From NCBI GenBank assembly GCA_019323015.1, contig JAHWHY010000004.1, positions 10,907-74,906 of the forward strand: DNA of 64,000 nt. Direction: 5' to 3'. Made by a program: the position numbers and the translations under genes. Under the pieces are notes generated by a model, which was not told the origin of the DNA, ran no database searches, and saw only the letters and a list, made by a program, of their open reading frames with translations. Each line of letters starts with the position of its first letter. Position 1 is the first letter of the stretch. The stretch comes from Candidatus Woesearchaeota archaeon (GTDB taxonomy: Archaea; Nanobdellota; Nanobdellia; Woesearchaeales; ARS49). Below, piece after piece: positions 1 to 54,582 of the stretch.

Positions 1-80
1 TCATACAAGAATACACAGACAAAAAAGACAAGGCAAGCTACACACTTGCAAACAAAATAGTCACAGGACACTACACAGAG

Positions 81-3000
81 ATGATACGGTGGGAGCTGTC
101 ACACCCCTGGAGCTATTACAAGATAAATGACGACAGAATACCAGACATCCTCAAGAAAAAAGAATCACTAGAGAAAGAACTGCGCGGAATAAGGGCAGAT
201 GCAGAGAAAACACTCGGCAAAAACGCAAAAAGAACAATAACAGACATGAACAAATTCTTTGAAAAATTCTACGGCACAAAACAATTCACAAAAATACACA
301 AAAGAAAATTTGCAGAAAGGCTCGGACCAGACATAATCGCAAGAAGAACAGAAGCACAGAGACAGATGCACGAACTGCAGGAACAAGTGCAGGAAATAGG
401 AAGAATAGAACACAATCCAAGAGATGCAGCTGACGAAATAAAAGTGATACTTGACTCTGACAGGCACTTTGAGTTCCAGCGATATGTTGATGCAGACGAG
501 ATACTCAACTCAAGATGGTGCTTTATCGACATAGAAAAGCCAAGATTTGACACGCCGCAAGAGGAAGTGAGCTGGGTAGCAATAAAATACTACGAAAACA
601 GAGTCCTGAAAAAAGAGATTCACACAAGCAAGAAAGTAGGGGAAGGCTTCAAGAGAAAATTTCTTGAGGAAAAAGGATTTGAAATCAAGGACCACTATAA
701 AGACGAAAACTGGCTGATGGCAGGAGTGCAGGCATCAATAAACGCAATGAACCCGAAGGTGCTGTGCACATACAACACGCCGTACGACCTTGTGGAGCTT
801 GATAAAACAGAACACGGACTGGAGTACGGCAAGAGAAGAACACGCGCAAAAAAAGAGGTAACGACAAGATTCTTTGAGAGAATAAACGTAAATGACATGA
901 TAGTATTTGACCCGCTTCCAATACTGAAGATAGCAAAAAAATTCCTGCCAAACAAAAAACTTGCACTAATAACACAGGAACTCGGGCTGGAATTCAAGAA
1001 ATCAATTGACTACAGAATGATGGCAGAGCTGGAAAACATAATAGACGGCACGCCGCTGGAACAAGTCTCAAGCAAGACAAAAGCAAAAATAACAGAGTTT
1101 GCAGGGCCAATAGCTGAGATAGAAAATCTGGAGCAAGTCTGCGCGCAGATAATAGCATCTTATGTAGGAGACGATGTCGAGATACTGCCAAGCCTCGTTT
1201 TTCATCCAAGAATGAGAAAAATCTACGAGCACATAAACTGGATATCACAATTTGCAGACGTAAACTTCCAGAAAGCAGCACACACTGCAAACGCCGTGAA
1301 CAATCTCCAGAAAAAAGACTTTTTTGAGAGAACAGGAACACACCTGGACACAATCCACAAAAGAACAAAAGCACAGCAAAGAGCAGAAAACAGAATAAGA
1401 AGCTTTGTGAAGAAAAAAAAGAAAAGAAACACCTGGATAAACGAGACAAAAGAAGAAAGAAATAGAAGAGAAGAAAGAGCAAGAGGGCTGCAAAAGAATC
1501 TTGCACACTTTGTGATACCATCATGGCAGTTTCTTCGCAAAGACATGGAATACAGATTTCCTAATGCAAAACAACTATTTGAGCACCTTGACCAGAACAA
1601 AGACAGCAAAGAAGCATATTATTTTTTATCAGAGTATGCAGACGCATTCTGCAAATACCTGCTGCATGCATGGGGCACATACATAAAAGCAAGAGACGAG
1701 CTTGACGCAAGAATAAGAAAAGCAGGCCTTGATTACTATAGAATAGACGATGCCTGCACAGGATGCAGGAAGCTTCTCAAGGGTACATTTGATGAAGACC
1801 AAATCAAAAGACAATATGTAACAATTAAAACACTGGAATCTATACTGGACTCTAAAACATACATCTCAGATTACTGGAAACCAACAGGCAGGGAAGAAAA
1901 TGACAGAGAACTAAAAAACGCCCTGCACGACGACATCAGAAAAATAAACAGAACACTAAAACAGCAGGGGCTTGAGGCAAGACAGTTCCAGGGCTGGCTC
2001 AATGAATGGCTAAGTGTTGAAAAAAAGAGAACAAATATTCTTGCATCATTTGCTGCAGACCCAGAAAACATAGAGATACTTGAATTTGAGCAAAGAATCA
2101 TCAATGCAGCAAGCGCCCTGAAAAAAGCAAAAGCAAAGATAATACATCAAAAAGACGAACACATCTTTACATCAATAGAAGGAACAAGCGAACTTCCTGA
2201 AGACATCCCGCTCATACAGGTTGAAGAGCATCAAAAGGCATACATTGCTGAAGACCCGGAATCAGGAAACAGGATATATTATCCAAAACACGGGTATTAC
2301 GGAGGCATAAAAGTACAGGAAGAGCCCTCCAACCATTTTACTGCATTTGAGATGCGCGCATACGGCGGGTTTCTAGACCTGCTGTTCAACGGGCACATAG
2401 ACAATGCAGTCCGGCACTTGATAAGGGAAAGAGACAGGTTCAGAAACAACAGGGTCGCAAGAAAAGAGCTGCTGTTTTTCATCAAAAAATCAAAGACATA
2501 CCAGGCATATGTAAAAGGCGAAACAATAAAATTCAGGACCAGCACAGAAGAAAAAACAAGATATGATGTAAAATACAGGATGCGGTATGTTGAAGAATAC
2601 AACAAAAAAGGCGAGCCAGAAAGGATATACATAACACCAATAGAAAAAATAAAACTGGACAGGACAAAATACTCTGCAAGAATAGAGAATAGAATCGCAA
2701 AACTGCTAAGACCGCTGCAGGCAATGATAAAAAGAGAAAGAGACCTGATGCCCACAGCACTAGAAGAATCTTACCCAAACACAAAAGACAGAAGTTTTGA
2801 TAACTGGCACAAAGGAGAACTTAAGGAATCTCCTTTTGTGTGGGCAAAAAAACAAGTTGAACAGGGACAGGTATTAAATGACACAGCACTAAATGTTTTT
2901 GCATCATACAGAATATACAGGAACGGCTTCAGGCCAGACTTTGAAAACGAAGAGATACAATGCGCAAAAGCACACTGGGCATGCAACATAATAAATGAAA

Positions 3001-3170
3001 ACACAGGACGCAGCATGCACAGGGAACAAACAATCGTGCCTTCCTCAAGAGGAGGATTTCACATAGTCACAAAATCAGAACACCCAGGAGAATACAGGTA
3101 CAAATGCACATGCGAGCACAACAGAATAAGAAAAAAAGAATGCAGGCACATCAAGCAGGCTGCTGCATGA
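81..3170 (+). CDS. Large protein with a DEDDy 3'-5' exonuclease domain (family-B-polymerase-type Exo I/II/III motifs) and a C-terminal SWIM zinc finger; no polymerase palm motifs recognised
   Basis: Exo I CFIDIE (D150/E152, nt 528-536), Exo II YNTPYD (nt 771-788), Exo III YVGDD (nt 1161-1175), with PolB-like spacing. C-terminal C-x-C-x9-C-x-H (CTCEHNRIRKKECRH, nt 3105-3149) fits SWIM. The reading frame stays open from nt 3, so the true start may lie upstream of the window. Confidence 0.55.
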   Translation: MIRWELSHPWSYYKINDDRIPDILKKKESLEKELRGIRADAEKTLGKNAKRTITDMNKFFEKFYGTKQFTKIHKRKFAERLGPDIIARRTEAQRQMHELQEQVQEIGRIEHNPRDAADEIKVILDSDRHFEFQRYVDADEILNSRWCFIDIEKPRFDTPQEEVSWVAIKYYENRVLKKEIHTSKKVGEGFKRKFLEEKGFEIKDHYKDENWLMAGVQASINAMNPKVLCTYNTPYDLVELDKTEHGLEYGKRRTRAKKEVTTRFFERINVNDMIVFDPLPILKIAKKFLPNKKLALITQELGLEFKKSIDYRMMAELENIIDGTPLEQVSSKTKAKITEFAGPIAEIENLEQVCAQIIASYVGDDVEILPSLVFHPRMRKIYEHINWISQFADVNFQKAAHTANAVNNLQKKDFFERTGTHLDTIHKRTKAQQRAENRIRSFVKKKKKRNTWINETKEERNRREERARGLQKNLAHFVIPSWQFLRKDMEYRFPNAKQLFEHLDQNKDSKEAYYFLSEYADAFCKYLLHAWGTYIKARDELDARIRKAGLDYYRIDDACTGCRKLLKGTFDEDQIKRQYVTIKTLESILDSKTYISDYWKPTGREENDRELKNALHDDIRKINRTLKQQGLEARQFQGWLNEWLSVEKKRTNILASFAADPENIEILEFEQRIINAASALKKAKAKIIHQKDEHIFTSIEGTSELPEDIPLIQVEEHQKAYIAEDPESGNRIYYPKHGYYGGIKVQEEPSNHFTAFEMRAYGGFLDLLFNGHIDNAVRHLIRERDRFRNNRVARKELLFFIKKSKTYQAYVKGETIKFRTSTEEKTRYDVKYRMRYVEEYNKKGEPERIYITPIEKIKLDRTKYSARIENRIAKLLRPLQAMIKRERDLMPTALEESYPNTKDRSFDNWHKGELKESPFVWAKKQVEQGQVLNDTALNVFASYRIYRNGFRPDFENEEIQCAKAHWACNIINENTGRSMHREQTIVPSSRGGFHIVTKSEHPGEYRYKCTCEHNRIRKKECRHIKQAAA

Positions 3171-3172
3171 AA

Positions 3173-3535
3173 TCACCTGTTTTCCTTAAACTCTCTCCTA
3201 AAACTTAAGCCAATTGATTCCTCTGAAAAATTAAAAAAAATCCAGAACTTCTGAGCAGTCCATCCCCTGCCAAGCCTATGCAGATAAGTATCCCCTAAAT
3301 AAGATATTGTGATCACCCCATTTCCATCACCAGTAGCGACGGGCAGGTACCATGTCTTCTTATGATTAACAATTCGAAACTCCTCATACTGGCGCTCCTG
3401 CAATTGATATCTTTTTCTGGCGCAAAAAGCAGAAAGCTCTGCAAGAAGATAGTTATAGCCATCCCACTCAGTTCGCGCCTCAATCCTTGCAACCAGGCCA
3501 GGACCAGACTTTGTCTCAAACAATTCAAATATCAT
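3173..3535 (-). CDS. Hypothetical protein (120 aa)
   Basis: ORF on the purine-rich (coding-like) strand, packed between neighbouring genes. No recognisable motif. Confidence 0.45.
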   Translation of the reverse strand: MIFELFETKSGPGLVARIEARTEWDGYNYLLAELSAFCARKRYQLQERQYEEFRIVNHKKTWYLPVATGDGNGVITISYLGDTYLHRLGRGWTAQKFWIFFNFSEESIGLSFRREFKENR

Positions 3536-3549
3536 ACAAAGGAATATCC

Positions 3550-3852
3550 TTAAACACTATATAATCCTTGCGCTTTATAGGTGCAGTCAAACTTTTCAAC
3601 AACAACTCCGCGAACCCTGTTTTTTTCAGGAAGCGCCCTTGAAAACTCCTTGACAAGCCTGGCAAGCGCATAACCATGAGACGTCTCGCTCTGAAGCCAC
3701 ACCTGCTCTGACATATCTTCTGGAAGCCTGATGTCAAAAGTCCTCAAGAGATGAAGCCGGTATTTCCAGATTTTTTCCATGCTGTCCAAGCCAAGAGCAT
3801 TAATCATTCTCATGCCATAAGCAGAATATTTACGCAGCACTAAACTCAGCAA
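3550..3852 (-). CDS. Hypothetical protein (about 87-100 aa)
   Basis: ORF on the purine-rich strand. The track start is TTG; in-frame ATGs occur at 3813 and 3807. No recognisable motif. Confidence 0.4.
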   Translation of the reverse strand: MLSLVLRKYSAYGMRMINALGLDSMEKIWKYRLHLLRTFDIRLPEDMSEQVWLQSETSHGYALARLVKEFSRALPEKNRVRGVVVEKFDCTYKAQGLYSV

Positions 3853-5339
3853 TGGAATTCTACCATCTTATTTTAATGAAGGCTCCAGAAGCAGAATCAG
3901 CAAGGCAATACCTGCACCAAAGAGGCTTCACAAGCAAAACACTTCAAGAACTAAAAATAGGGTTTGCACAAGACAGATGGGATACAGTCCTAAACAAAGC
4001 AAGATACCGCTATGGAAAAGACTCAATAAAAATTCTTCAGACAGCATCCCTGATAAGCGAAAGAAGAAGCAAGACAGGACACTATGACTATTTCAGGAAC
4101 AGAATAATGTTTCCAATCTTTGACAACTTTGGAAAAACAATCGGCTTTGGAGGCAGGGCATTAAAGCCAGACGACGAAATAAAATACCTTAATTCACGCG
4201 AAATAAAAAAAATCTTTGAAAAATCAAAAACATTATACCTGCTGAACCTGGCGCAAAGAGAGGCAATGCGCACAGGACACCTTTTAATGATGGAAGGCTA
4301 CACAGACGCAGCACTTGCACGCCAGCAAGGACTAAAAAACACATTTGCAACAGCAGGAACAGCATTAACACCAGACCATGCTTTGATGCTCAAAAGAATA
4401 ACAGATAAAATAATAATATGCATGGATGCAGACAATGCAGGAAGAAAAGCATCTATTGACGCAGCAATGCTTTTGCTGAACACAGGAATCAATGTTGAAT
4501 TAATCCTGCTTCCAGACAAAAAAGACCCTGCAGAAGTAATACTTGAAGAAGGAGACAGATTCAAGCACAGGATAGACAGCGCAGTCTCGCTTTTTGACTT
4601 TGCACTGGAAGATGCAGTAAAAAAACATAATATTTCATCAACACACAATAAAGCAATTGTGCTAAAAGAACTAGAGCCTGTCTTACGAGCAGCGCCAGAC
4701 GCGATAACCTGCCATGCATATATTCACGCTGCAGCAAAAAGGCTGGATGTTCCTTTTGAGACTGCAGCAAGAGCTGTTGAAGCAAGCAGGCAGCATAACA
4801 AGCCAATAGAACTCACCCCATTCCTGACAACAGAACAAGAACACAGAATAGCAAGCATCCTGCTGAGAAGACCTGCCTACAGAAATGAAATCATGACAAG
4901 GCTCCTGCCAGAACACTTCAAGAACAATGAAATAAGAGCATTATTCATGTATTTCAGGGAAACAGAAACTGCAAAAGGAGACCTGATAACATCAAACCAC
5001 CGCTTGTCAAAAACACCATCGCTTTTTGATTCACAATACACTGAAAATCTTCCACGAGACATAATAGGTTTTGCAAGGAAAACAGGCCTGCCAGCAGAAG
5101 AAAGCAAACTCTACAGCATGATAAGCAGGCTACAGAGAACACCTGCTCCAGACACGCCAATCAACATCATCATAAACAGCATGCTAAAAGCGCATTACAG
5201 ACACGAGCTGAACCAGATGGAAGAACAAATACAAGATGCAGGAATCAGGAAAGACCAGAAAGCACTAGAGAAACTAATGCAAAACTACCAAAAAACACTA
5301 CAAGAATATCACAAGCTAAGCTTATCCAATAAAGACTGA
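3852..5339 (+). CDS. dnaG: Bacterial-type DnaG primase (RNA-polymerase/TOPRIM core plus C-terminal domain) lacking the N-terminal zinc-binding domain
   Basis: Bacterial DnaG motifs are present: RNRIMFPIFDNFGKTIGFGGRAL, KYLNS, LMMEGYTDAAL (EGYMD-like), ICMDADNAGRKA (DxD). The protein begins at the FYH...YL..RGF segment that normally follows the Zn ribbon. Confidence 0.8.
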   Translation: MEFYHLILMKAPEAESARQYLHQRGFTSKTLQELKIGFAQDRWDTVLNKARYRYGKDSIKILQTASLISERRSKTGHYDYFRNRIMFPIFDNFGKTIGFGGRALKPDDEIKYLNSREIKKIFEKSKTLYLLNLAQREAMRTGHLLMMEGYTDAALARQQGLKNTFATAGTALTPDHALMLKRITDKIIICMDADNAGRKASIDAAMLLLNTGINVELILLPDKKDPAEVILEEGDRFKHRIDSAVSLFDFALEDAVKKHNISSTHNKAIVLKELEPVLRAAPDAITCHAYIHAAAKRLDVPFETAARAVEASRQHNKPIELTPFLTTEQEHRIASILLRRPAYRNEIMTRLLPEHFKNNEIRALFMYFRETETAKGDLITSNHRLSKTPSLFDSQYTENLPRDIIGFARKTGLPAEESKLYSMISRLQRTPAPDTPINIIINSMLKAHYRHELNQMEEQIQDAGIRKDQKALEKLMQNYQKTLQEYHKLSLSNKD

Positions 5340-6079
5340 TTAAAATATTCAGGATTTCTCAAAAGCTTGACATAAAGCGCAGCTGTTGAAAAAATATCCA
5401 AGACATTATGGCGAACAATCCTCGCAAGAGGCTCTGGATTCCCACCTTTCCTATAGTTTTCATATTCTGCAAGTATTTTCTCTCCAGCAACATCATCATC
5501 CGGGCGCGTAAAGCCAAGCAAGGCAACTTCATAAGCAACAAGAGACATTTCTTCAAGGCCATGAGATTTTTTATACGGCTTAAGCGCCTGCATAACATCC
5601 AGATGCTTTTCACCAGGCCAGCCCCACTCAATAAAAAAATTCCTGGCCCGCGCACTAATTCTTGTCATGTCAAATGTTCCATTAAAAGAAACCGCTGCTT
5701 TTGCAGAAGACATTCTTTTAATAAATGCTTCCAAGACAGTCTGCTCTTCATAATAATCCCTTGCAAAAAAACCTTCATAAACAAAAGCACTTCTTCTTGC
5801 ATCATACCTTCCAACACCGATAAGAAACATAGGATCATCATAACTAAGGCCAGTAGACTCAATATCAATAACAGCGACATTATCCAAAGGAATGAAAAAC
5901 AGTTCATTATGCCGGGTGATAATCCTTCTGTCTTTCCAGGCATTAATGTTTCTTCTGACACAATCAGCATTCCGCTTTCTCACACTATCAAGAGGAACAA
6001 GAACCTTGTAGTAATCTATTCCCTTGATTTTAGCAATCCTTCCCTCTAGAAACTGCTCTATGCGCTCCCCCTTAGCCAT
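5309..6079 (-). CDS. RNase H-fold 3'-5' exonuclease (YprB / PolB-exo-like, DEDD)
   Basis: VIDIESTGL (DxE), VSFNGTFDM, and HNVLD near the C-terminus. This layout is typical of the YprB-like RNase_H_2 family. Confidence 0.7.
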   Translation of the reverse strand: MAKGERIEQFLEGRIAKIKGIDYYKVLVPLDSVRKRNADCVRRNINAWKDRRIITRHNELFFIPLDNVAVIDIESTGLSYDDPMFLIGVGRYDARRSAFVYEGFFARDYYEEQTVLEAFIKRMSSAKAAVSFNGTFDMTRISARARNFFIEWGWPGEKHLDVMQALKPYKKSHGLEEMSLVAYEVALLGFTRPDDDVAGEKILAEYENYRKGGNPEPLARIVRHNVLDIFSTAALYVKLLRNPEYFNQSLLDKLSL

Positions 6080-6091
6080 AAGAAAAAAGAA

Positions 6092-7966
6092 TCACTGCAC
6101 TGTATTTAATATTTTTGTATTTTCAGAGGCTCTTTCAAGAGACTCAACAAGACCGCCCAAGACCTGGTTATGATGCAAAGCAAGCTTCCTGTTCGCAGGC
6201 TTAAGCGCAATATGCGGTGAATTGACCACAATTTCATGGAACCTGTATATGTTTGCAAGGCTGTGCACTCTCGGCACAGCCTCTGCAACATATGTGTGAC
6301 ACGGTGAACATTCCAGCTCAGCAACAGCCTTAGACAGGTATTCCAGAAATTTTTCAGGAGGAACAGCCTTAATTCCAATCTCACCAAGAGGGTCAGCAAG
6401 CCTGTCATACACAGACCTGTTCATCTGAATAACAGCAATAACACCATCAAGTGCAAATGCATTATCCTGCCTGAAAGCAGACAAGTCATCATAATTCTCA
6501 AATAAATTGCTTGCAGCATTGACTGTAGTCCCTGCCTTGGTCTCAACTGCAAAATTTTTTCTTGCAGAAGAAGCCATAGCATCTGGCTCAACATAAGAGC
6601 CGTCCCAGCGGTAAATCCTTAAGCCGCGGCCAGTAATAGGATTAACATCACGAATCTCAGGAAAGAACTTCCTGAACCCATTCCTGAAATACGCGCCAGT
6701 GGGGTCAACAAGATTAGTGACAAGAAGAACAAGCTTTGTAGCCTTCTCTGTTATCTCTGAAAGCAATTTAGAATTCTGGAAAACAGAGCAGGAAAAATCT
6801 TTTTTACGCAGGCTAGTCAAGCGTTCAATTGTCTGGCAGGGCGTCTCGATCCTTATCCCAAGAGGGCCAATGCCTGCACGCGTAACCTGCCTGTATAATT
6901 TCCTGTGCCCAGGATTCCTGCTTTTCTTGAGAGCAGTAGGGGCAATGTTCACACCATCATTAAAAAAATATGCTCTTAATCTTTTGCCAAGATTTTCCTC
7001 GTCAACAGAGGTGACAAACCTTGAAACAAAGCTGTACAAGTGAGGAAAATCATCATGGACACTGTTAATCATTTTCTCAACACTGTCTTTTTCACTTCTT
7101 GCAGCAATGGTCCTCATCTCACGCAGAAGCTCTGGATATTTTTCACTGAGCTTTTCAAGAGAGAGAATAATAGAAGGGTCATGCGCGTCATACGCCTTTT
7201 TGACTTGTTCATAAGGCCATATCTCAAGCAATTTTTCATGAACCCCTGCAAGTGACTGCCTGCATCTTCCATTAGTTTCATAACCAAGCGCCTTAAGACC
7301 AGCACTGATACTGTCCTTATCAGAAACCAATTTACCAAGGTTGCGAAGCTTTTTTGCAAGAGAGTTATCCTTTGTGCAAAGTATATCCTTTTTACGGACA
7401 ACATCATTGTTAAATAATCTGTATTTGTGCAGTTTTTCAGTGATGTCTTCCCTAAGCTGGGCCTCAGTCAGGGCAGGGCGCGGGGCGCTCACTGTGGTAA
7501 AACCAAGCGCCTTAAGGCCTGAAGAAATGCTGTCTTTTCCATTAACAATTCTACCATATCTTCGGATTCTGTGTGCAAGGGTGCTGTTATTAAGGGCGAT
7601 GATGTCTTTTTTGCGTGCAGGATTATCCGGAGTAATTTTACGTTTTTTTAGCTCAGAAAGAATCCTTTTTCTTAATGTCTTTTCACGCTTTGCATGGACC
7701 TGCCTGCTTTTAAAATCTCTTGCGAGAACAAAACCAAGATCTCTTGCAGTAGAGCCAGCAGAGTACCTGCCCCTTGCAATCTTGTTTCTTAATGAGAGAT
7801 GATACAACAAGGTTGAAGAAATCTTGTTAGTGTTTACAACTTCATCAGGAAACTCCTTCCGCAGCCTTGCAGCAAGCTCATTGTCAATGCACTCCAGTTC
7901 ATGAGAAGAAATACCATACCCATTACTTACAGCCTGCCAAAGTAGATAACTTAAGGATTCACTCAC
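6092..7966 (-). CDS. Large hypothetical protein with N-terminal tandem ~39-aa repeats (73-aa period) and a possible C-terminal PD-(D/E)xK nuclease motif
   Basis: Repeats RKKDIIALNNSTLAHRIRRYGRIVNGKDSISSGLKALGF and RKKDILCTKDNSLAKKLRNLGKLVSDKDSISAGLKALGY (nt 7280-7615). WDGSYVEPD...FAVETK (D-x(n)-E-x-K, nt 6536-6604). Confidence 0.4.
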   Translation of the reverse strand: MSESLSYLLWQAVSNGYGISSHELECIDNELAARLRKEFPDEVVNTNKISSTLLYHLSLRNKIARGRYSAGSTARDLGFVLARDFKSRQVHAKREKTLRKRILSELKKRKITPDNPARKKDIIALNNSTLAHRIRRYGRIVNGKDSISSGLKALGFTTVSAPRPALTEAQLREDITEKLHKYRLFNNDVVRKKDILCTKDNSLAKKLRNLGKLVSDKDSISAGLKALGYETNGRCRQSLAGVHEKLLEIWPYEQVKKAYDAHDPSIILSLEKLSEKYPELLREMRTIAARSEKDSVEKMINSVHDDFPHLYSFVSRFVTSVDEENLGKRLRAYFFNDGVNIAPTALKKSRNPGHRKLYRQVTRAGIGPLGIRIETPCQTIERLTSLRKKDFSCSVFQNSKLLSEITEKATKLVLLVTNLVDPTGAYFRNGFRKFFPEIRDVNPITGRGLRIYRWDGSYVEPDAMASSARKNFAVETKAGTTVNAASNLFENYDDLSAFRQDNAFALDGVIAVIQMNRSVYDRLADPLGEIGIKAVPPEKFLEYLSKAVAELECSPCHTYVAEAVPRVHSLANIYRFHEIVVNSPHIALKPANRKLALHHNQVLGGLVESLERASENTKILNTVQ

Positions 7967-8051: not shown

Positions 8052-8435
8052 TTAAACAAGAACAGCATTTAATGAGCCATTCTGGCCAGGTCTAGAAGTC
8101 ACTCTTGCCTTTCCCTTGTCAGTCTCAACAATGCTTCCTTTTGTGAGGATATTACGCCTGACATAGTTCAAGTTAGCAGGAGATTCTGTAACTTTTTTCA
8201 GTTTAGCTTTCTCAAATTTCTTTGTCTTAGGATTGAATAAATTAACAGTGTTGATATTCAAAAGAATGGTTTTCTTGCTGCCGCCTCTTCCACGGAACTC
8301 TTTTTTCACGTCTTTCTCAGCAATAGTTGTATTAGTCGGCCGTCTGCCTAGCTCATATTTCTTCTTAGCCCTAGGAGCCTTGTAGCGCCCCCCTGTGGCT
8401 TTCCTTGACTGTCTTCCTCTCTGTGAAATAGCCAT
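8052..8435 (-). CDS. rps8e: 30S ribosomal protein S8e
   Basis: N-terminus MAISQRGRQSRKATGGRYKAPRAKKKYELGR and overall length match archaeal eS8. Confidence 0.9.
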   Translation of the reverse strand: MAISQRGRQSRKATGGRYKAPRAKKKYELGRRPTNTTIAEKDVKKEFRGRGGSKKTILLNINTVNLFNPKTKKFEKAKLKKVTESPANLNYVRRNILTKGSIVETDKGKARVTSRPGQNGSLNAVLV

Positions 8436-8472
8436 AAGACCTAAAAATTGGGTGATTCTTTATAAACTTTAT

Positions 8473-8605
8473 GGTGGTGAGCAGTAGGTAGTAAGTGGTA
8501 AGTAGTAGGTAGTCAATAGTTGTTGAATAAATTGCCGCAACCACTAACTACAAACCAATAACCACTGACTAAAAACCACAAACCACAAACTAATAACTAC
8601 AAACC
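8473..8605. repeat. Low-complexity imperfect inverted repeat: G/T-rich arm (GGTAGT-type) followed by A/C-rich arm (ACTACAAACCACAAAC-type)
   Basis: Left arm 8473-8526, loop AATAAATTGCCG, right arm 8538-8605. It shares the AACTACAAACCACAAACTAA motif with the element at 10102-10187. Confidence 0.6.
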
Positions 8606-8652
8606 AAATAAATAGAGAAAAATATAAATAAGACCTTGTTATCCCTCAATTA

Positions 8653-10101
8653 ATGAAAAAAGCAGTAATTTTGTTCGTGATATTTGTGATACTTTCTATT
8701 AATGCTGCTGCCTTGAAAATCGTCAACACGCATGCAGATGGAAAAAATCCAGTGATATACGGCAGCACTGTTGCTTTTGAGACAGCGGAATCAGATTTGG
8801 GAACAGACCTTAATAATGACGGCGACACAAATGATAAAGTAATCAGGTATTACAATGTGGATTCTGGGGACATATTCAACACAGAAATAGCAGGAAAAAA
8901 CCCGACGATATTTGCGCAATACATTGCATTTGAATCCTCTGAAAAAGACCAAAATGCAGACCTAAATGCAGACAATGACACTAATGACAACATAATATTA
9001 TATTACAGCCTGCGAGATAAAAAAGTAATAAGCACAACAGCAGAGGGAAAAACACCTTCCTTATTCGGGGATTACATTGCCTTCTCAACACCTGCAGAAA
9101 AAATAAGGGGAATAGACTATAATAACGACGGGGACCAGGAGGATGAGATAATCAAGCTGTACAAAATATCAACAAAAGAACTCACAAACACAAAAGCAGC
9201 AGGAATGAACCCTGCAGTATCTGACAAGTACATCATCTTTGAGACTCTTGAAAAAGATGAGGACAAGGACCTTAACAATGATGATGATAAAAACGACATA
9301 GTGCTACGGTATTATATAATGGAATCTGGAAAAACACTAAGCTCATTCACGCCAGGACAAAAGCCAAACATGAATGAAGAAAGCGTGGCAGTCTTCACAT
9401 CATATGATAATGGAGACTCAATATATTATTATTCTGTTGCAACAGAGGAACTTAAAAACACAGAAGTAAAAGGAAACACCCCTTCAATAACAAATAACTT
9501 AATATCCTTTATACAAGATGAAAAACTTGCAGTATACGACACTGACAAAAGCGCTTTTGCAGTGACAGACGTATATGGAGCCAACCCAACTGTTTTTGAA
9601 AACAAACTCGCGTTCTCAACAAATGAAGCACTTACAGGAGACCTGAACAATGACGGGGATTCAGCAGACTCTGTAATAAGAATAGTGATAGGAGAAGATC
9701 TTGACAATGATGGAGTCTATGATTTTGCAGACAACTGCCCTGATGAAACAAATGAAAACCAGACAGACAAAGACAGAGATGGAATAGGAGATGCTTGTGA
9801 TGAAGACACAAAAAAAGCGAAAGAGGCAGAGGAAACAAAAGAGAATACAGACGAGAAAGCAGCTGAGGAAGAAGCAAAACAAACAACATTACTTTCCGAA
9901 GATAAAGAGGAGACAAAAGCAGAAAAGACAAGCGAGCCAAAACCTTTGCCAGAGCCAAAATCATTCACAATGACAAAGAAAAAAGGCCCAGGATTTTTTA
10001 CATGGTTATTGATACTACTCGCTATACTTGCAGGAGCAGGATGTGTTATCTATGCAGCAATTTTCGGGCTGGGAAAGAGAAAAAGAAAGTTTAAGTTCTA
10101 A
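8653..10101 (+). CDS. Secreted repeat protein with thrombospondin type-3 (Ca-binding) repeats and a C-terminal membrane anchor
   Basis: N-terminal signal/TM. About six repeats of G(K)NP.I....IAFE..E.D...DLN.D.DTND.(V/I)IRYY. DNDGVYDFADNCPDETNENQTDKDRDGIGDACD. Acidic linker, C-terminal TM and a basic tail. Confidence 0.7.
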   Translation: MKKAVILFVIFVILSINAAALKIVNTHADGKNPVIYGSTVAFETAESDLGTDLNNDGDTNDKVIRYYNVDSGDIFNTEIAGKNPTIFAQYIAFESSEKDQNADLNADNDTNDNIILYYSLRDKKVISTTAEGKTPSLFGDYIAFSTPAEKIRGIDYNNDGDQEDEIIKLYKISTKELTNTKAAGMNPAVSDKYIIFETLEKDEDKDLNNDDDKNDIVLRYYIMESGKTLSSFTPGQKPNMNEESVAVFTSYDNGDSIYYYSVATEELKNTEVKGNTPSITNNLISFIQDEKLAVYDTDKSAFAVTDVYGANPTVFENKLAFSTNEALTGDLNNDGDSADSVIRIVIGEDLDNDGVYDFADNCPDETNENQTDKDRDGIGDACDEDTKKAKEAEETKENTDEKAAEEEAKQTTLLSEDKEETKAEKTSEPKPLPEPKSFTMTKKKGPGFFTWLLILLAILAGAGCVIYAAIFGLGKRKRKFKF

Positions 10102-10187
10102 TGGGTAGTTGGTAGCGGGTGGTTGTTGGTTGCCGAATATTAAATTTCCGAATAACTACAAACCACAAACTAAAAACTAACAACCTG
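10102..10187. repeat. Second copy of the G/T-arm / A/C-arm inverted-repeat element
   Basis: TGGGTAGTTGGTAGCGGGTGGTTGTTGGTTGCC ... AATAACTACAAACCACAAACTAAAAACTAACAACC. Lies immediately after the stop of the 8653-10101 gene. Confidence 0.6.
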
Positions 10188-10193
10188 CGTTTT

Positions 10194-10209
10194 AGAAAGC
10201 TTTAAATAT
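10194..10209 (+). promoter_or_regulatory. BRE/TATA promoter (AGAAAGCTTTAAATAT) for the Sm-rpl37e pair
   Basis: Matches the recurrent window motif CGAAAGnTTTAWAWA, 54 nt upstream of the Sm start codon. Confidence 0.5.
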
Positions 10210-10262
10210 GGAGTGCTCATTTTTAAGAATAATTGTTTTAAATTTTTAGAGGGGTGCAATAA

Positions 10263-10487
10263 ATGGTTGAAGCAAGACCTTTGGATGCCTTAAACAGGGC
10301 AAAAGACAAAAAAGTAATAGTAGACTTAAAGAATCAAAGACAGTACATTGGAATACTAAAAGCGTTTGACATTCACATAAACGTTGTTCTAGATGACACT
10401 GAAGAAAGAATAGAGGGCGAAGTGAAAAGGAAATTAGGAACTGTCTTCATAAGAGGAGACACGATAATCCTGATATCTCCTGCATAA
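10263..10487 (+). CDS. Sm-like (LSm/SmAP) RNA-binding protein
   Basis: Sm1/Sm2 motifs: [28 protein letters not shown] ... [13 protein letters not shown]. Confidence 0.9.
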
Positions 10488-10497
10488 GAACACTAAA

Positions 10498-10665
10498 ATG
10501 ACAAAAGGAACACCTTCAAAAGGAAAGCAATCCAAAGGCAGATCACACATAATCTGCAGAAGGTGCGGAAAGCATTCTTATCACGTCAGCAAAAAAAAAT
10601 GCGCCAGCTGCGGCTTTGGCAACAGTTCAAAGCTAAGGTCGTACAAATGGCAGAAGAAAGCATAA
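10498..10665 (+). CDS. rpl37e: 50S ribosomal protein L37e (55 aa; below the ORF-track length cutoff)
   Basis: My translation: [55 protein letters not shown]. It has the C4 zinc ribbon and MTKGT N-terminus typical of eL37. The Sm-L37e linkage is conserved in archaea. Confidence 0.85.
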
Positions 10666-10849
10666 AGCTTTCTAATTCTTTTGTTTTTCTTTTAATATTT
10701 CTTGATATTTTATCTTAATTAATTAACAAGCAGTAAGGGTTTCAAAGTTTTAGATTACTAGCTGGGTCCTTCGGACAGTTAGTTTTATATATGCGTGGCT
10801 TTTGCTTTCTTTTTATCGTTTGTATTGTTTTATACAAGCGATTGCATAT

Positions 10850-10862
10850 GCGGGGTTGCCGG
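10850..10862 (+). repeat. 13-nt exact copy of the tRNA-Leu(UAG) 5' end (GCGGGGTTGCCGG), 64 nt upstream of the tRNA body
   Basis: Identical to 10914-10926. The intervening 51 nt contains CCCCGC(G), which is complementary to both copies, plus a CTGAAC/GTTCAG hairpin. Confidence 0.7.
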
Positions 10863-10913
10863 CAAATCTGAACAAGTTCAGAAAGCCGTCATCCCCGCGT
10901 TCGCTGCGCTCAC

Positions 10914-11144
10914 GCGGGGTTGCCGGAGTGGCCAAACGGGTCAGGCTTAGGCAAGTTGTTTTTCAGGTATGCTGAGTCCAGAAATGGGCGATGACTTGAA
11001 GACACCTGATGGCTTAGTGCCTACGCAGGTTCGAATGTGAGGGACTGCACCCTACACGTACTGGCGTACGGTCAGGTGCTCCTGGCGGAGACCTGACGGG
11101 ACATGTGATCATGTGATCTCTCATCGAAAGTCCTGCACCCCGCA
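10914..11144 (+). tRNA. tRNA-Leu(UAG), class II, with two introns (canonical 37/38, 10952-11003; T-loop 59/60 region, about 11037-11131); the 5' exon could instead start at 10850
   Basis: Hand fold: acceptor GCGGGGT/ACCCCGC, discriminator A, anticodon stem TCAGG/CCTGA, loop CTTAGG..A, long variable arm, T arm GCAGG-TTCGAAT-[95 nt]-CCTGC. Spliced length is 84 nt. Confidence 0.75.
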
Positions 11145-11322
11145 TCATTTTTACTTGATTTATAAAGAAAAGAGGGGGTATTTATAAAGCAAAAATGAAT
11201 TTTAGCGGTTTTTGTGCATTAGATTTTATCATCATTTCTGAGTGGCAACAGCCCAAACACCATAATTTTAAGGGCTTGAAGGGTGCTTGGGAGGCAAACC
11301 TGTCGCAATTATCCCGACTTTT

Positions 11323-11340
11323 AGAAAAGTTTATAAATAA
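11323..11340 (+). promoter_or_regulatory. BRE/TATA promoter candidate (AGAAAAGTTTATAAATAA) for the S-layer gene, implying a ~160-nt structured leader
   Basis: Matches the window promoter consensus. The downstream leader contains hairpins ACACATA/TATGTGT and CTTTAC/GTAAAG, with SD GGAGGTG before the ATG at 11523. Confidence 0.45.
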
Positions 11341-11522
11341 AACTTTATCCTTTCAACAAATATGGCTAGTAATGATACTCTCTTGCTAGCCAAGAAAAAG
11401 AGGACACATAGCGAGGTTTATGTGTTCTGATATCGTGTGGAGACAAAATTGTTTTTACACAAAAACGCAAGATCTTTACATGGCGTAAAGATAGCCAAAA
11501 AAAACACGGAGGTGTTTGAATA

Positions 11523-18199: not shown

Positions 18200-18297
18200 A
18201 ACAAGAGAGGCATTTTTAAAATATTTAAATGTTGTTGTTTTATAGTATACTAAACTTTATAAACAGGACAGCATTTAAACAAACAACAGGTGGGAAA

Positions 18298-21200: not shown

Positions 21201-21546
21201 AGAAGGGCCAAAATATGGAATGGATATACCAGATGAAAAATACTGGCAGTCTGACCTCTTGAGATTCTTAGATGGTACAACACCTGGCGAGCTCAGGGGA
21301 TGGAAAAGAAGACCAAGACGATGGGAAAGACGCCCCAAATGGGTTGAGTGGGATTTCAGGCACGTTGTGTATGTAGCAAACGGCACTGCTGCGAAATTCT
21401 CATACAGGCGCAATCTTGAGGAAAAACTCAGGACGCATGCACAAGATAATTCTGTAAGATTAAGCGAAGATCAAGCAGAAAAATTATTCATACCAGTAGC
21501 AAGAAAATTTGAAGCACTAGTTAATGAAGTTTTAAAAGAAATGTAA
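18298..21546 (+). CDS. Large orphan protein (1,083 aa from the ATG at 18298), mostly helical, K/E/R-rich
   Basis: Long uninterrupted ORF on the purine-rich strand. BRE/TATA-like AAACTTTATAAACA at 18252-18265 and SD AGGTGGG 4 nt before the ATG at 18298. One CxxC...C patch (FRCDACGNQ...YQCF). No family recognised. Confidence 0.7.
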   Translation: MHKFTPASLERIIERLNNAVTHLKKEKKETEQAGKTFDFDYVITLFEETHLKDYRRILAKLNRWGYSSETVEEVRLRDVVEHVMSPLNQENQLSDAAKILAKYIVNPDETGKRKKQSDYVGLERLTLIVSNSKNKNIFDAWAKEWEIDNFYDKDLGVKKQFRCDACGNQSSKNVTIINAETGSKLSFNYQCFNNLTADLGKLGGVISSVEHAKKETSDAQARKFQELLEKALDKMEFEEAAGRIKKELPEEYRIVADPEAWLEQLGSMYEHFRQDIDFTTGSKEFEPHASLRTWSRIRFEDENVPEPVRLAHEKFLSLSKMTLAERLLFIQDYKLNRAVSILENKDMLDDLFLLELQGEANLDPIRHLFKSRITKTDSDKIAEFRSDFLDTRRAHNSALIKKYGPEIIDSSLRIALTYFFRDRAGWAEAYQRQEKFLDASLSKKDYAIINRICERLTLGFPQEMPIDYDAEAVQRILLDKTPMLIAKEWMRELAVIQRKLDYGKAKSDETSKLHGEYIPAEEFHDFTDIDRRFSLSTVIDKIAHSYARTSAHMNFVEQELPGLKKAVEHSLIDRALTFHKDTAYELRLTDEQARTLKQISNEIRKLDKRIKAIKVPRQASEEKTKLNRKRDELVTQRDELIIRRYLSLKGDYLQYTLRNVNGERINQHNSVLGCTLKTIFDGVRDFKPASEYGDLPEKIAEIADIIEKSRIFLHVPNLPEYYFNPETLRKIKYVDEEGVAKLSRIHGLLTAPTKALEDAIKAIEKSENPAEVIAKMKAYAEKNVQLLKNLWTPQLMQIGLKEKHKSKSKGVEFYAFDSLQREYNKIKGCITLDGLVDELRENKEFEKAVTGPEEYFLGMLNEVTRSHSLFKKIIEIVKSDTDLSNIYVAGEIVKTARQTIEDMPYFPSQIRRKKLFEDKSEKYIRETFVQSVFEKIQEQPEKERQAYWRLINGQKMYFSRKEGEKGWKEGPKYGMDIPDEKYWQSDLLRFLDGTTPGELRGWKRRPRRWERRPKWVEWDFRHVVYVANGTAAKFSYRRNLEEKLRTHAQDNSVRLSEDQAEKLFIPVARKFEALVNEVLKEM

Positions 21547-41092: not shown

Positions 41093-41163
41093 TCCCTGCT
41101 CTCAGAGTCGAACTGAGATGCGCGGGGTTACAGCCCACTGCTTTACCGTTAAGCTAAACAGGG
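41093..41163 (-). tRNA. tRNA-Tyr(GUA), intron-less
   Basis: Hand fold: C1-G72 pair (an archaeal/eukaryal Tyr identity feature), anticodon stem GTGGG/CCCGC, loop CTGTAAC, T arm CTCAG-TTCGACT-CTGAG, discriminator A. Confidence 0.85.
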
Positions 41164-54438: not shown

Positions 54439-54546
54439 CGCCTGGGACGGGATTTTCGCCCGCTTAGTTCGAGATTCGAACCCGCAGGACCTTGGTAGGT
54501 CAGGGATCCTTAGTCCCTCGCAATTACCAAGTTATGCGACCCAGGC
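54439..54546 (-). tRNA. Class II tRNA with apparent anticodon AAG (Leu box) and discriminator G73; one intron in the T-loop region (54452-54473)
   Basis: Hand fold: GCCTGGG/CCCAGGC acceptor, anticodon stem AGGGA/TCCCT, loop CTAAGGA (anticodon at 54509-54511), variable-arm hairpin GACCT-ACCA-AGGTC, T arm GCGGG-TTCGAAT-[22 nt]-CCCGT. Spliced length is 86 nt. Confidence 0.65.
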
Positions 54547-54582
54547 ATAAGTTTTATATACTTGTAGTGCTTTATTACAAGT

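What the first reader, a model, noticed from the sequence alone, without database searches (positions are those of the whole stretch)
1..7966. Compact module of non-archaeal-looking DNA replication/nuclease genes at the window start
Seen: six consecutive genes before rps8e encode the following. (i) A protein of at least 1,029 aa with PolB-type Exo I/II/III motifs and a SWIM finger. (ii, iii) Two small orphans on the opposite strand. (iv) A bacterial-type DnaG primase without its zinc ribbon. (v) A YprB-like DEDD exonuclease that converges on and overlaps dnaG by 31 nt. (vi) A 624-aa repeat protein with a D...ExK motif. Established: archaeal chromosomes normally use PriS/PriL and an archaeal-type DnaG-like TOPRIM protein, not a bacterial-type DnaG with KYLNS and EGY(M/T)D motifs. 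Inference: this is a horizontally acquired replication/processing module. It could come from a plasmid, virus or integrated element, or it could be an uncharacterised primase-exonuclease system. Its left boundary lies outside the window.
Basis: partly seen in the sequence, partly recalled or inferred. Interest (0 to 1): 0.65.

Follow-up and report, generated by a model that had tools for sequence, protein, structure and literature searches.

The report
Dead-polymerase PolB plus decaying bacterial primase cassette
The six genes are real, but they are two separate things in a Woesearchaeota chromosome: a lineage-wide relative of family B DNA polymerase that keeps its proofreading nuclease but seems to have lost its polymerase site, and an old bacterial-type primase/nuclease gene cassette that is eroding in this species.

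Summary
All six genes exist at the stated coordinates, and most motif calls hold. They are not one recently acquired module.

**Gene (i).** The window's left edge cuts it; the full protein is 1,214 aa. It is a very divergent family B DNA polymerase (PolB) homologue. Exo I/II/III are invariant, but the motif A-like and motif C-like sites have no conserved acidic residues. It belongs to a family of about 150 cluster representatives; the named members are Woesearchaeota. It keeps its position near rpS8e even in relatives with about 30% identity. About 40% of members end in a clamp-binding-like Q-x-x-L-F peptide.

**Genes (iii)-(vi).** The small protein, bacterial-type DnaG, MrfB/YprB-like DEDDh exonuclease and repeat protein with a PD…ExK motif form a strictly co-linear four-gene cassette. 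It lies in a variable gap between gene (i) and rpS8e.
- The cassette is intact in deeper relatives.
- It carries a DnaG frameshift in one relative.
- In this window, one deletion removed the DnaG zinc ribbon and the start of gene (iii).
- It is absent from this site in the two closest species.

**No sign of a mobile element.** DnaG sits within bacterial diversity, with no identifiable donor. Codon usage is native. I found no integrase, att repeats or viral relatives.

The parts
1..3170 (+). 3' part (about 1,056 of 1,214 codons) of 'BIG', a divergent family B DNA polymerase homologue with an intact exonuclease site and a degenerate polymerase site
   Evidence: open to the window edge; full length on L001. 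(Foldseek: the top 50 PDB hits are all PolBs). (family profile against PDB PolB, E=2e-7). (hhalign against the E. coli Pol II exo domain, 95%).
522..542 (+). Exo I motif FIDIEKP (D335/E337 of the full protein)
   Evidence: Invariant in 36 diverse family members.
771..788 (+). Exo II motif YNTPYD (N417, D421)
   Evidence: At least 94% conserved in the family.
1161..1178 (+). Exo III motif YVGDDV (Y546, D550)
   Evidence: Invariant in the family.
1482..1526 (+). Motif A-like stretch RGLQKNLAHFVIPSW, with no conserved Asp
   Evidence: Family columns. The assignment rests on pattern comparison with PolB motif A and is an inference.
2136..2171 (+). Motif C-like beta-hairpin KIIHQ-KDE-HIFT, where YGDTDS would sit; acidic residues are not conserved
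   Evidence: Strand-turn-strand in the model. Family variants at the turn include QGG, EGN, NGS and KDE.
2271..2375 (+). KxY-like stretch (RIYYPKHG...) and start of the thumb region that aligns by sequence to PolB residues 621-665
   Evidence: (third matched stretch).
3105..3149 (+). C-terminal CxC-x9-CxH, a SWIM-like zinc finger
   Evidence: Pattern conserved in P0001-P0008 and P0010. Pfam SWIM is sub-threshold in P0008 only. The model shows beta-beta-beta-alpha here.
3173..3535 (-). Gene ii, a conserved 120-aa protein of unknown function. It is not part of the cassette: it lies on either side of it and is present without it.
3550..3852 (-). Gene iii, 5'-truncated. It lacks about 49 N-terminal residues found in the 141-152 aa homologues.
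   Evidence: Alignment.
3819..3852 (.). Deletion junction. DnaG homology starts at 3819, 11 codons before the ATG. The zinc ribbon, the divergent promoter region and the 5' end of iii are gone.
   Evidence: Compare the intact intergenic region in L007.
3852..5339 (+). Bacterial-type DnaG core (DNAG_N + TOPRIM + PF10410) without a zinc ribbon. The C-terminal domain is specific to this clade.
5309..6079 (-). MrfB/YprB-like DEDDh 3'-5' exonuclease (PF13482). It converges on dnaG with a 31-nt overlap.
   Evidence: (D72, E74, N133, D137, H224 and D228 are invariant). The overlap is conserved at 11-40 nt in relatives.
6092..7966 (-). Gene vi: about three 70-aa helical repeats in the N-terminal half, and a C-terminal domain with a PD...ExK motif (EPD at 6572-6589, ETK at 6530-6550)
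   Evidence: A weak SfsA RE-domain hint in a homologue. The fold model is too poor to test.
8052..8435 (-). rpS8e, the right-hand anchor of the variable gap

Best explanation
The stretch holds two independent units on an ordinary Woesearchaeota chromosome.

Unit 1, gene i ('BIG', 1,214 aa in full). This is a vertically inherited, highly diverged family B DNA polymerase homologue.
- Shown: the PolB fold; invariant Exo I/II/III; no conserved acidic residues at the motif A-like and motif C-like positions; a conserved position near rpS8e and, in the subclade, next to an HhH-GPD glycosylase; a clamp-binding-like C-terminal peptide in many relatives; a SWIM-like finger in this subclade.
- Inferred: it no longer polymerises. 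It works as a DNA-bound 3'-5' exonuclease that trims or proofreads 3' ends in repair or replication. In many relatives it is probably tethered to the sliding clamp.

Unit 2, genes iii-DnaG-EXO-vi. This is an accessory four-gene cassette built around a DnaG primase of bacterial origin. An ancestor of a Woesearchaeota subclade took it up long ago, and it sits in a variable gap between BIG and rpS8e.
- Shown: strict co-linearity; a conserved convergent DnaG/EXO overlap; native composition; a series of lesions (intact, then frameshifted, then 5'-deleted here, then absent).
- Inferred: in full-length form the primase lays down RNA primers on single-stranded DNA, while the DEDDh exonuclease and the PD-(D/E)xK-like protein process DNA ends. 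That would make it a repriming/repair or plasmid-style replication module that the host domesticated.
- Inferred for this species: having lost the zinc ribbon, DnaG can probably no longer start primers on its own, and the cassette is dispensable and eroding.
For: BIG:
- Foldseek against the PDB gives only PolBs, with about 860 aligned columns, E=3.5e-6 and probability 1. The viral structure library is likewise dominated by PolBs, including all of its long full-length alignments.
- The family profile hits archaeal PolB by sequence in the Exo II region and in the thumb. hhalign against the E. coli Pol II exo domain gives 95%. 4 of 36 members hit PF03104.
- The exo residues are invariant. The only mostly acidic columns downstream of the exo domain are 596, 608, 715 (Ala in this subclade), 932, 942 and 1045.
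- The family has 150 representatives. BIG lies near rpS8e and LSm even at about 30% identity.
- 40 of 100 full-length members end in a Qxx[LIMF]F-type peptide, against 0.8 expected.

Cassette:
- Domain content.
- Co-linearity holds in L005, L007, L011, L014 and L017-L021.
- The cassette is absent from this site in L009, L008, L012 and L013.
- L009 keeps a relic of about 35 nt of the 3' end of iii.
- L014 and L015 carry a 1-nt frameshift in an A6 run.
- The window deletion removes the 5' ends of both DnaG and iii.
- The DnaG clade is monophyletic inside bacterial diversity.
- Codon usage is native. There are no att-like repeats and no viral relatives.
Against: BIG:
- The structure model is only moderate (pLDDT 73, pTM 0.46; TM-scores to PolBs 0.16-0.21). 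My motif A and motif C assignments come from pattern and secondary structure, not from a residue-level structural alignment.
- A conserved Asp (position 715, 81% of the wider family) could be a displaced catalytic residue in other members.
- PolB groups once called 'inactivated' have later been argued to be active (Kazlauskas 2020).
- The clamp-binding reading of the C-terminal peptide is untested, and this window's protein lacks it.

Cassette:
- The DnaG core of this species shows no faster divergence than that of L014. All catalytic motifs are intact. The truncated gene is identical on 9 contigs from several samples. So it may still be functional rather than decaying.
- Absence of the cassette from L008 and L009 is shown only at this site. 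Those MAGs are incomplete, so it could lie elsewhere.
- The nuclease fold of vi is unconfirmed.
- No direct evidence bears on what the cassette does.
Confidence: 0.6

Rival explanations
1. One reading: all six genes form one horizontally acquired replication/processing module from a plasmid, virus or integrated element.
For: DnaG is of bacterial type and confined to a narrow clade. The cassette lies in a variable gap and is missing from close relatives. Cassette proteins evolve fast: 42-62% identity between the window and L014, against 87% for S8e.
Against: BIG and gene ii persist without the cassette. BIG belongs to a large family that matches archaeal PolBs best. There is no integrase in the 5.6 kb to the left. 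The nearest tRNA gene is about 33 kb beyond the cassette, there are no flanking repeats, composition is native, and there are no IMG/VR or phage relatives.
Confidence: 0.1
2. The four-gene cassette is an anti-virus or anti-plasmid defence system. A DNA-binding repeat/nuclease protein senses or cuts foreign DNA, and the TOPRIM and DEDDh enzymes act as effectors.
For: It has the typical signs of accessory conflict genes. It occupies a hotspot that holds different genes in different species. Its presence is patchy and it shows repeated inactivating lesions. It diverges quickly, and the repeat number in vi varies (542-806 aa). It carries two or three nuclease-type domains.
Against: PADLOC gives nothing except DnaG-domain similarity to the primase-like parts of DRT systems. 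There is no ATPase, helicase or other sensor typical of known systems. The DnaG keeps a full bacterial primase architecture in relatives, which is unusual for an effector.
Confidence: 0.2
3. The bacterial-type DnaG is the working replicative primase of these archaea, having replaced or supplemented PriS/PriL, and the neighbouring nucleases mature Okazaki fragments.
For: Catalytic motifs are intact in all six clade members. A clade-specific conserved C-terminal domain has replaced the DnaB-binding domain, which suggests adaptation to a new partner. A comparative study reports that PriSL was not detected in several DPANN phyla (PMC8407392).
Against: The gene is frameshifted, truncated or absent at this site in four closely related species. 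That is hard to reconcile with an essential role. The 'DnaG' of DPANN surveys is probably the universal archaeal-type protein.
Confidence: 0.07
4. BIG is an active but extremely derived DNA polymerase that uses non-canonical catalytic residues.
For: The whole PolB scaffold, including a KxY-like stretch and the thumb, is retained over long divergence. Basic residues on the predicted finger helices are conserved. There is precedent: PolB2 was once thought inactive.
Against: There is no conserved acidic pair at the motif A-like or motif C-like positions in 36 members. In this subclade the one conserved Asp of the wider family is Ala.
Confidence: 0.12

Closest known systems
Family B DNA polymerases (archaeal PolB of Thermococcales, PDB 1qqc/1tgo/4fm2; Pfam PF03104 and PF00136)
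   Same: Overall fold. Exo I/II/III motifs. Sequence-level matches in the Exo II region and the thumb. Same domain order.
   Different: No conserved Asp at the motif A-like position, and no DTD at the motif C-like hairpin. An insertion of about 110 residues of long helices precedes the hairpin, and there is a long coiled N-terminal extension. Pfam and NCBIfam do not recognise this protein. A SWIM-like tail is present in this subclade.
'Inactivated' archaeal PolB family (PolB2/B2 group; Rogozin et al. 2008, PMC2527604) and the C-terminal half of eukaryotic Pol epsilon
   Same: A conserved PolB scaffold with a degenerate polymerase active site. This implies a non-polymerising role.
   Different: In those families the exonuclease motifs are also disrupted, and the distal Asp of YGDTD is kept. 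Here the exonuclease site is fully conserved, and neither Asp is.
Bacterial DnaG primase (TIGR01391; PF01807 + PF08275 + TOPRIM + PF10410)
   Same: The RNA polymerase core and TOPRIM motifs KYLNS, EGYTD and DxD. Full-length relatives also have the zinc ribbon.
   Different: The zinc ribbon is deleted in this species. The score is below the TIGR01391 cut-off (248.6 against 283.6). The C-terminal helicase-binding domain is replaced by a clade-specific conserved sequence. No DnaB gene is nearby. The host is an archaeon.
MG010-type zinc-ribbon-less DnaG paralogues of Mycoplasma (TIGR00646)
   Same: By my recollection these are DnaG paralogues without the N-terminal zinc-binding domain; I did not check this here. 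There is a weak match (E=2e-8).
   Different: The score is far below the cut-off (34 against 260). In the window the truncation is a recent deletion, not an old paralogue.
MrfB (YprB) DEDDh exonuclease of Bacillus subtilis (PDB 8un9; PF13482)
   Same: PF13482 at E=3e-27. It is the best solved relative. The DEDDh residues are invariant.
   Different: There is no MrfA/YprA-type helicase next to it. Here it is paired convergently with a primase gene.
PD-(D/E)xK nucleases (for example the SfsA RE domain and RecB/Cas4-like nucleases; TM0106 family TIGR03491, which fuses such a nuclease to a PF13482 domain)
   Same: An invariant (P)D-x12-E-x-K in vi. A weak SfsA RE hint. The neighbouring EXO matches the PF13482 part of TIGR03491, so vi plus EXO resemble a split version.
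   Different: There is no significant HMM or fold match for vi. The N-terminal 70-aa repeat array has no known counterpart.

Membership tests
Family B DNA polymerase | 3'-5' exonuclease motifs Exo I (DxE), Exo II (Nx2-3F/YD) and Exo III (Yx3D) | tested here: met
   D335/E337, N417/D421 and Y546/D550 are invariant or at least 94% conserved in 36 members.
Family B DNA polymerase | Overall PolB fold (N-terminal, exo, palm, fingers, thumb) | tested here: met
   The top 50 Foldseek PDB hits are all PolBs with about 860 aligned columns. A sequence match to the thumb. The model is of moderate quality.
Family B DNA polymerase | Motif A (DxxSLYPS) catalytic Asp | tested here: not met
   No conserved acidic residue at 654-665. 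The wider family has D715 at 81%, but this subclade has Ala there. The column assignment is by pattern, not by structural superposition.
Family B DNA polymerase | Motif C (YGDTDS) catalytic Asp pair | tested here: not met
   The hairpin at 872-886 reads KDE, KNE, RDN, QGG, EGN and so on, with no conserved acid.
Family B DNA polymerase | Pfam PF00136/PF03104 above the gathering score | tested here: not met
   No hit for this protein. PF03104 hits only 4 of 36 distant members.
Inactivated archaeal PolB (B2 group) | Disrupted Exo I, with the distal Asp of YGDTD retained | tested here: not met
   Exo I is intact and no Asp is retained. Family definition from PMC2527604.
Bacterial DnaG primase (TIGR01391 equivalog) | N-terminal CHC2 zinc ribbon (PF01807) | tested here: not met
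   Absent from the gene and from the whole window. Present in relatives P0015-P0018.
Bacterial DnaG primase (TIGR01391 equivalog) | DNAG_N RNA polymerase core and TOPRIM with acidic motifs | tested here: met
   PF08275 at 5.5e-33 and Toprim_2 at 4.5e-16. KYLNS, EGYTD and DADNAG.
Bacterial DnaG primase (TIGR01391 equivalog) | Score above the curated cut-off | tested here: not met
   248.6 bits against a cut-off of 283.6.
Bacterial DnaG primase (TIGR01391 equivalog) | C-terminal DnaB-helicase-binding domain (PF08278) and a DnaB partner | tested here: not met
   Only PF10410 is present. The C-terminus is clade-specific. No DnaB among the genes examined in the cassette, its flanks or the Pfam-scanned large ORFs of the window. 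The rest of the genome was not searchable.
Archaeal-type DnaG (exosome-associated TOPRIM protein) | TOPRIM protein without the bacterial DNAG_N domain, universal and vertically inherited in archaea | tested here: not met
   DNAG_N is present. The nearest relatives outside the clade are bacterial. Family description from PMC3914693.
MrfB/YprB-like RNase_H_2 exonuclease (PF13482) | Pfam match above the cut-off and DEDDh catalytic residues | tested here: met
   95.9 bits against 22. D72, E74, D137, H224 and D228 are invariant. 8un9 is the best PDB relative.
MrfAB repair system | Adjacent MrfA/YprA DExH helicase | tested here: not met
   No helicase in the cassette or its flanks.
PD-(D/E)xK nuclease superfamily (gene vi) | D...(D/E)xK catalytic motif on an alpha-beta-beta-beta-alpha-beta core | tested here: inconclusive
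   The motif is invariant and there is a weak SfsA hint. The model of this half has pLDDT below 50, and there was no fold hit.
SWIM zinc finger (PF04434) | CxCxnCxH signature recognised by the family model | tested here: inconclusive
   The signature is present and conserved. Pfam gives only E=0.03 (14.3 bits against a 19.6 cut-off), and only in homologue P0008.
Integrated mobile element (plasmid, provirus or island) | Integrase or recombinase, flanking att repeats or a tRNA target, foreign composition | tested here: not met
Known anti-phage defence systems (PADLOC) | Match of the component proteins to a system model | tested here: not met
   Only DnaG-domain similarity to DRT primase-like parts.

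The most novel reading that the evidence does not exclude
BIG represents an undescribed class of PolB-derived proteins that occurs across much of the Woesearchaeota. It would have given up polymerisation but kept proofreading, acting as a clamp-tethered, stand-alone 3'-5' exonuclease at forks or repair sites. Possible roles are a trans-acting proofreader, or a cleaner of the 3' ends left by the neighbouring HhH-GPD glycosylase. Beside it, a bacterial DnaG whose helicase-binding tail was remodelled for an archaeal partner would form a second, optional priming/repair system.
Probability: 0.3. Interest if true: 0.7.

Novelty: new variant of a known kind. Interest (0 to 1): 0.55.

Why it matters
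If BIG is a polymerase-dead PolB with a live exonuclease, it would be the mirror image of Pol alpha and Pol zeta (live polymerase, dead exonuclease). It would also differ from the known 'inactivated' PolBs, in which both sites are degenerate. That would add a new way in which replicative polymerase scaffolds get reused. It would also give a concrete candidate for an accessory proofreading or 3'-end-cleaning factor in genome-reduced DPANN archaea, whose replication and repair machinery is poorly understood. The family is sizeable (about 150 clusters at 50% identity), yet Pfam and NCBIfam do not detect this protein and Pfam recognises only 4 of 36 sampled members, so most members are probably left as 'hypothetical'.

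The DnaG cassette is a clean natural series: intact, split, truncated, lost. It shows how a transferred bacterial replication gene fares in an archaeal genome. It also shows that a bacterial-type primase can be kept for a long time without its usual helicase partner.

Tried and rejected
- Sequence searches of BIG (single protein and the 12-sequence profile) and of vi (single protein and the A3 profile) against Pfam, NCBIfam, PHROGs and PDB gave nothing significant. Only the 36-sequence profile of the wider BIG family reached PolB.
- The structure prediction of vi was too poor in the nuclease half (pLDDT below 50), and Foldseek gave only noise. The PD-(D/E)xK call therefore stays at motif level.
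- I looked for a zinc-ribbon remnant upstream of dnaG and elsewhere in the window. None was found, apart from 11 codons of linker homology.
- I looked for att-like direct repeats flanking the cassette. A similarity seen through L009 turned out to be no better than chance between the two window flanks (score 18 against a null of 19.8).
- A relative-rate comparison to detect relaxed selection on the truncated DnaG showed no acceleration.
- Phage and IMG/VR searches for the cassette proteins found only generic phage DnaGs at 27-36% identity, weaker than cellular bacterial ones. EXO had no relative in IMG/VR, and vi had none in IMG/VR or the phage collection. The IMG/VR scan with the BIG family alignment could not run because no stretch was conserved enough.
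- PADLOC produced no system.
- Literature searches found no description of a bacterial-type DnaG in Woesearchaeota or of a PolB with a live exonuclease and dead polymerase. Known Woesearchaeota PolB groups B7 and B9 are described as ordinary, motif-bearing PolB groups.
- I considered that BIG descends from the bacterial Pol II-like B7 group, because of the QLxLF-like tails. I set this aside because the family profile scores archaeal PolBs far better than Pol II (E=2e-7 against 0.22).

Full report
**What is in the sequence**

ORF listing reproduces the six genes exactly:
- 81..3170(+), 1,029 aa
- 3173..3535(-), 120 aa
- 3550..3852(-), 100 aa
- 3852..5339(+), 495 aa
- 5309..6079(-), 256 aa
- 6092..7966(-), 624 aa

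rpS8e follows at 8052..8435(-). The rest of the window is an ordinary archaeal chromosome. It holds LSm, L37e, an S-layer protein, ribonucleotide reductase, TFB, and split RpoB and RpoA genes. NCBI names an identical copy of the large protein as coming from a Candidatus Woesearchaeota archaeon. The same DNA occurs on 9 contigs of up to about 200 kb from several metagenomes. These let me read beyond the left edge of the window.

**Left boundary**

The first ORF stays open to the window edge. It is 1,214 aa long on the public contigs. Upstream lie a divergently transcribed HhH-GPD glycosylase with an Fe-S loop, membrane and secreted proteins, and a signal peptidase II. There is no integrase or other mobile-element gene.

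**Gene i ('BIG')**

Pfam, NCBIfam, PHROGs and PDB sequence searches find nothing for this protein. A word-indexed search found only 12 relatives. An exhaustive profile search found 150 cluster representatives, 96 of them at E<=1e-30 and mostly 900-1,200 aa. The named ones are Woesearchaeota.

An AlphaFold model built on 12 sequences (pLDDT 73) matches family B DNA polymerases almost exclusively: all top-50 PDB hits and most viral-library hits. The alignments span about 860 columns (P. abyssi PolB 4fm2, E=3.5e-6).

Sequence evidence agrees with the fold:
- A 36-member profile hits Thermococcales-type PolBs in the PDB (1qqc, E=2e-7). It matches both the Exo II region and thumb residues 621-665.
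- hhalign aligns the exo domain with E. coli Pol II at 95% probability.
- 4 of 36 members reach PF03104.

Exo I (D335, E337), Exo II (N417, D421) and Exo III (Y546, D550) are invariant or nearly so across the family. The polymerase sites are different:
- The stretch that looks like motif A (G654...P665) has no conserved acid.
- The beta-hairpin where YGDTDS should sit reads KDE, KNE, RDN, QGG, EGN and similar.
- Downstream of the exo domain, the only mostly acidic columns are 596, 608, 715, 932, 942 and 1045. Position 715 is Ala in this subclade.

I therefore read BIG as a PolB scaffold with a live proofreading nuclease and a dead polymerase. The motif assignments are by pattern, not by structural superposition. 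That is the main caveat.

**Clues to how BIG works**

- 40 of 100 full-length family members end in a Q-x-x-[LIMF]-F-type peptide (QLSLF, QGKLF, QLELF, QATFDFF and others). Shuffled sequences give 0.8. Such peptides resemble the PIP box and the bacterial clamp-binding motif, by my recollection of those motifs. I infer tethering to a sliding clamp.
- This window's subclade instead carries a C-terminal extension with CxC-x9-CxH. That is the SWIM signature, although Pfam supports it only below threshold and only in one homologue.
- BIG keeps its place near rpS8e and LSm even in relatives at about 30% identity. In the subclade it shares a 50-bp divergent spacer with the glycosylase gene.

These points indicate vertical inheritance. 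They fit a role in trimming 3' ends in repair or replication, but that role is an inference.

**Genes iii to vi**

*DnaG.* It has DNAG_N, TOPRIM and PF10410. The TIGR01391 match begins at profile position 121, and the score is below that model's cut-off. KYLNS, EGYTD and DxD are intact.
- Its only close relatives are five proteins from the same group of Woesearchaeota. Four of them are 611-613 aa and carry the zinc ribbon.
- Scores then fall from 397 to 213 bits, to bacterial primases of many phyla.
- In a neighbour-joining tree the six form one clade on a long stem within bacterial diversity, with no clear donor.
- Phage primases are more distant.
- The C-terminal third is conserved within the clade but unlike bacterial helicase-binding domains.

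*The exonuclease (EXO).* It matches PF13482 at 3e-27, and its best solved relative is MrfB/YprB. The DEDDh residues are invariant.

*Gene vi.* It has two clear and probably three repeats of about 70 aa. It carries an invariant (P)D-x12-E-x-K. Only three relatives were found. Its fold could not be tested.

**Two units, not one**

tblastn of the window proteins against 15 related loci gives these results:
- iii-DnaG-EXO-vi always occur together, in the same order. The convergent DnaG/EXO overlap is conserved at 11-40 nt. This holds in L005/L010/L019, L007/L018, L011/L017 and L014/L015. The short contigs L020 and L021 hold co-linear parts of it (vi-EXO-DnaG and vi-EXO).
- The block is missing between BIG and rpS8e in the two species closest to this one: L009 (BIG 83% identical) and L008 (74%). 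It is also missing in the distant L012 and L013.
- Gene ii lies on either side of the block (L011 against the window), and it is present in L009 without the block.
- The gap between BIG and rpS8e holds unrelated genes in L005, L008, L012 and L013.

BIG and rpS8e are therefore stable anchors around a variable gap, and the four-gene block is an accessory cassette.

**A series of lesions**

- In deeper relatives DnaG is full length.
- In L014 and L015 it is split by a 1-nt frameshift in an A6 run, seen in two separate assemblies.
- In this window, homology to DnaG begins 11 codons before the ATG at 3852. Gene iii, divergent on the other strand, lacks the first roughly 49 residues of its 141-152 aa homologues. 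One deletion therefore removed the zinc ribbon, the shared promoter region (compare L007) and the start of iii.
- L009 retains about 35 nt that match the 3' end of iii. This indicates deletion there rather than insertion here.

The identity matrix of BIG orders the species as (window, L009), L008, the L014 group, and then the rest. The lesions are therefore independent events in one subclade.

Two observations argue against simple decay. The truncated DnaG core has not diverged faster than that of L014. It is also identical in all sampled populations.

**Tests for a mobile element**

- GC, GC3 and synonymous codon usage of all six genes lie within the range of the other 28 large genes of the window, including the rpo genes.
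- No direct repeats flank the cassette above chance.
- No tRNA gene lies within about 33 kb of the cassette.
- EXO and vi have no relatives on IMG/VR viral contigs, and vi has none in the phage collection.
- PADLOC recognises no defence system.

**Interpretation**

The reading as one acquired six-gene module does not.

My best explanation has two parts. The first is a vertically inherited, PolB-derived exonuclease. The second is an old bacterial-type DnaG cassette that appears dispensable and is eroding in this subclade.

The cassette's function is not shown. I favour a repriming/end-processing module domesticated from a bacterial or plasmid source. A defence role is the main rival, given the hotspot location, patchy presence, fast evolution and nuclease content.

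Literature searches found no description of either feature. Kazlauskas et al. 2020 list the B7 and B9 PolB groups in Woesearchaeota, and they are described as ordinary PolB groups. The known 'inactivated' PolBs have lost Exo I as well.

Noticed in passing
BIG family proteins P0138-P0270 (C-termini); L012:5611-8541 and L013:9623-12553: About 40% of full-length family members end in a Q-x-x-L-F-type peptide (QLSLF, QGKLF, QLELF, QLVLGF, QATFDFF). It resembles sliding-clamp-binding motifs and is far above chance (40 observed against 0.8 expected). This window's protein lacks it.
   Followed up: partly
L012:8585-9253(-) and L013:12550-12915(-): The unrelated small proteins just downstream of BIG in these distant relatives also end in GEQLTLF. 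That is the same kind of C-terminal peptide as on their BIG proteins.
   Followed up: no
L014:9591-10055 / 10001-11440 (also L015): The DnaG of a related species is split into a zinc-ribbon ORF and a core ORF by a 1-nt shift in a CTCAAAAAAGAGG run, identical in two assemblies. It could be a true lesion or a site of transcriptional or translational slippage.
   Followed up: partly
window 8436-8652 (between rpS8e and the 482-aa gene): The divergent intergenic region holds two tandem-repeat arrays: a 21-nt unit x1.9 at 8474-8513, and an AACCACA-like heptamer x9.7 at 8539-8606. Their purpose is unknown.
   Followed up: no
window 8653-10101 (+): A 482-aa protein with a signal peptide and C-terminal membrane anchor. 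It carries many 'DLNxDGDxxD' acidic repeats that look like calcium-binding sites. It has no Pfam hit and is conserved next to rpS8e in all relatives.
   Followed up: no
window 18229-21546 (+): A 1,105-aa ORF with no Pfam match at E<=1e-5. It lies between the ribonucleotide reductase gene and TFB.
   Followed up: no
window 54460-54547 (-): ARAGORN calls an 88-nt tRNA-Leu(AAG) here, but Rfam's tRNA model did not report it at the gathering score. Only the tRNA-Tyr at 41093-41163 was found by both.
   Followed up: no
L005:13702-14736(-) and L008:6385-7146(-): The gap between BIG and rpS8e holds different orphan genes in different species: a 344-aa Cys-rich protein in L005 and a 253-aa protein in L008. 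It behaves as a hotspot for gene turnover.
   Followed up: partly
window 5312-5341 (EXO C-terminus) and homologues: EXO proteins end in a conserved N-(Q/E/R)-S-L-L-x-x-L-S-(F/L) peptide. It is encoded within the overlap with the 3' end of dnaG and is loosely PIP-like.
   Followed up: no
window 7800-7966 region of gene vi (residues 22-51) and P0134: The N-terminal repeat unit of vi gives sub-threshold matches to the DinI-like family (E=3e-4 to 4e-3), over an 'EL..ID..L..R...FPD' stretch.
   Followed up: no
L021:2000-3976: A more distant lineage (rpS8e only 55% identical) also has vi and EXO next to rpS8e before the contig ends. The cassette may therefore be older than the subclade in which DnaG was seen.
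   Followed up: no
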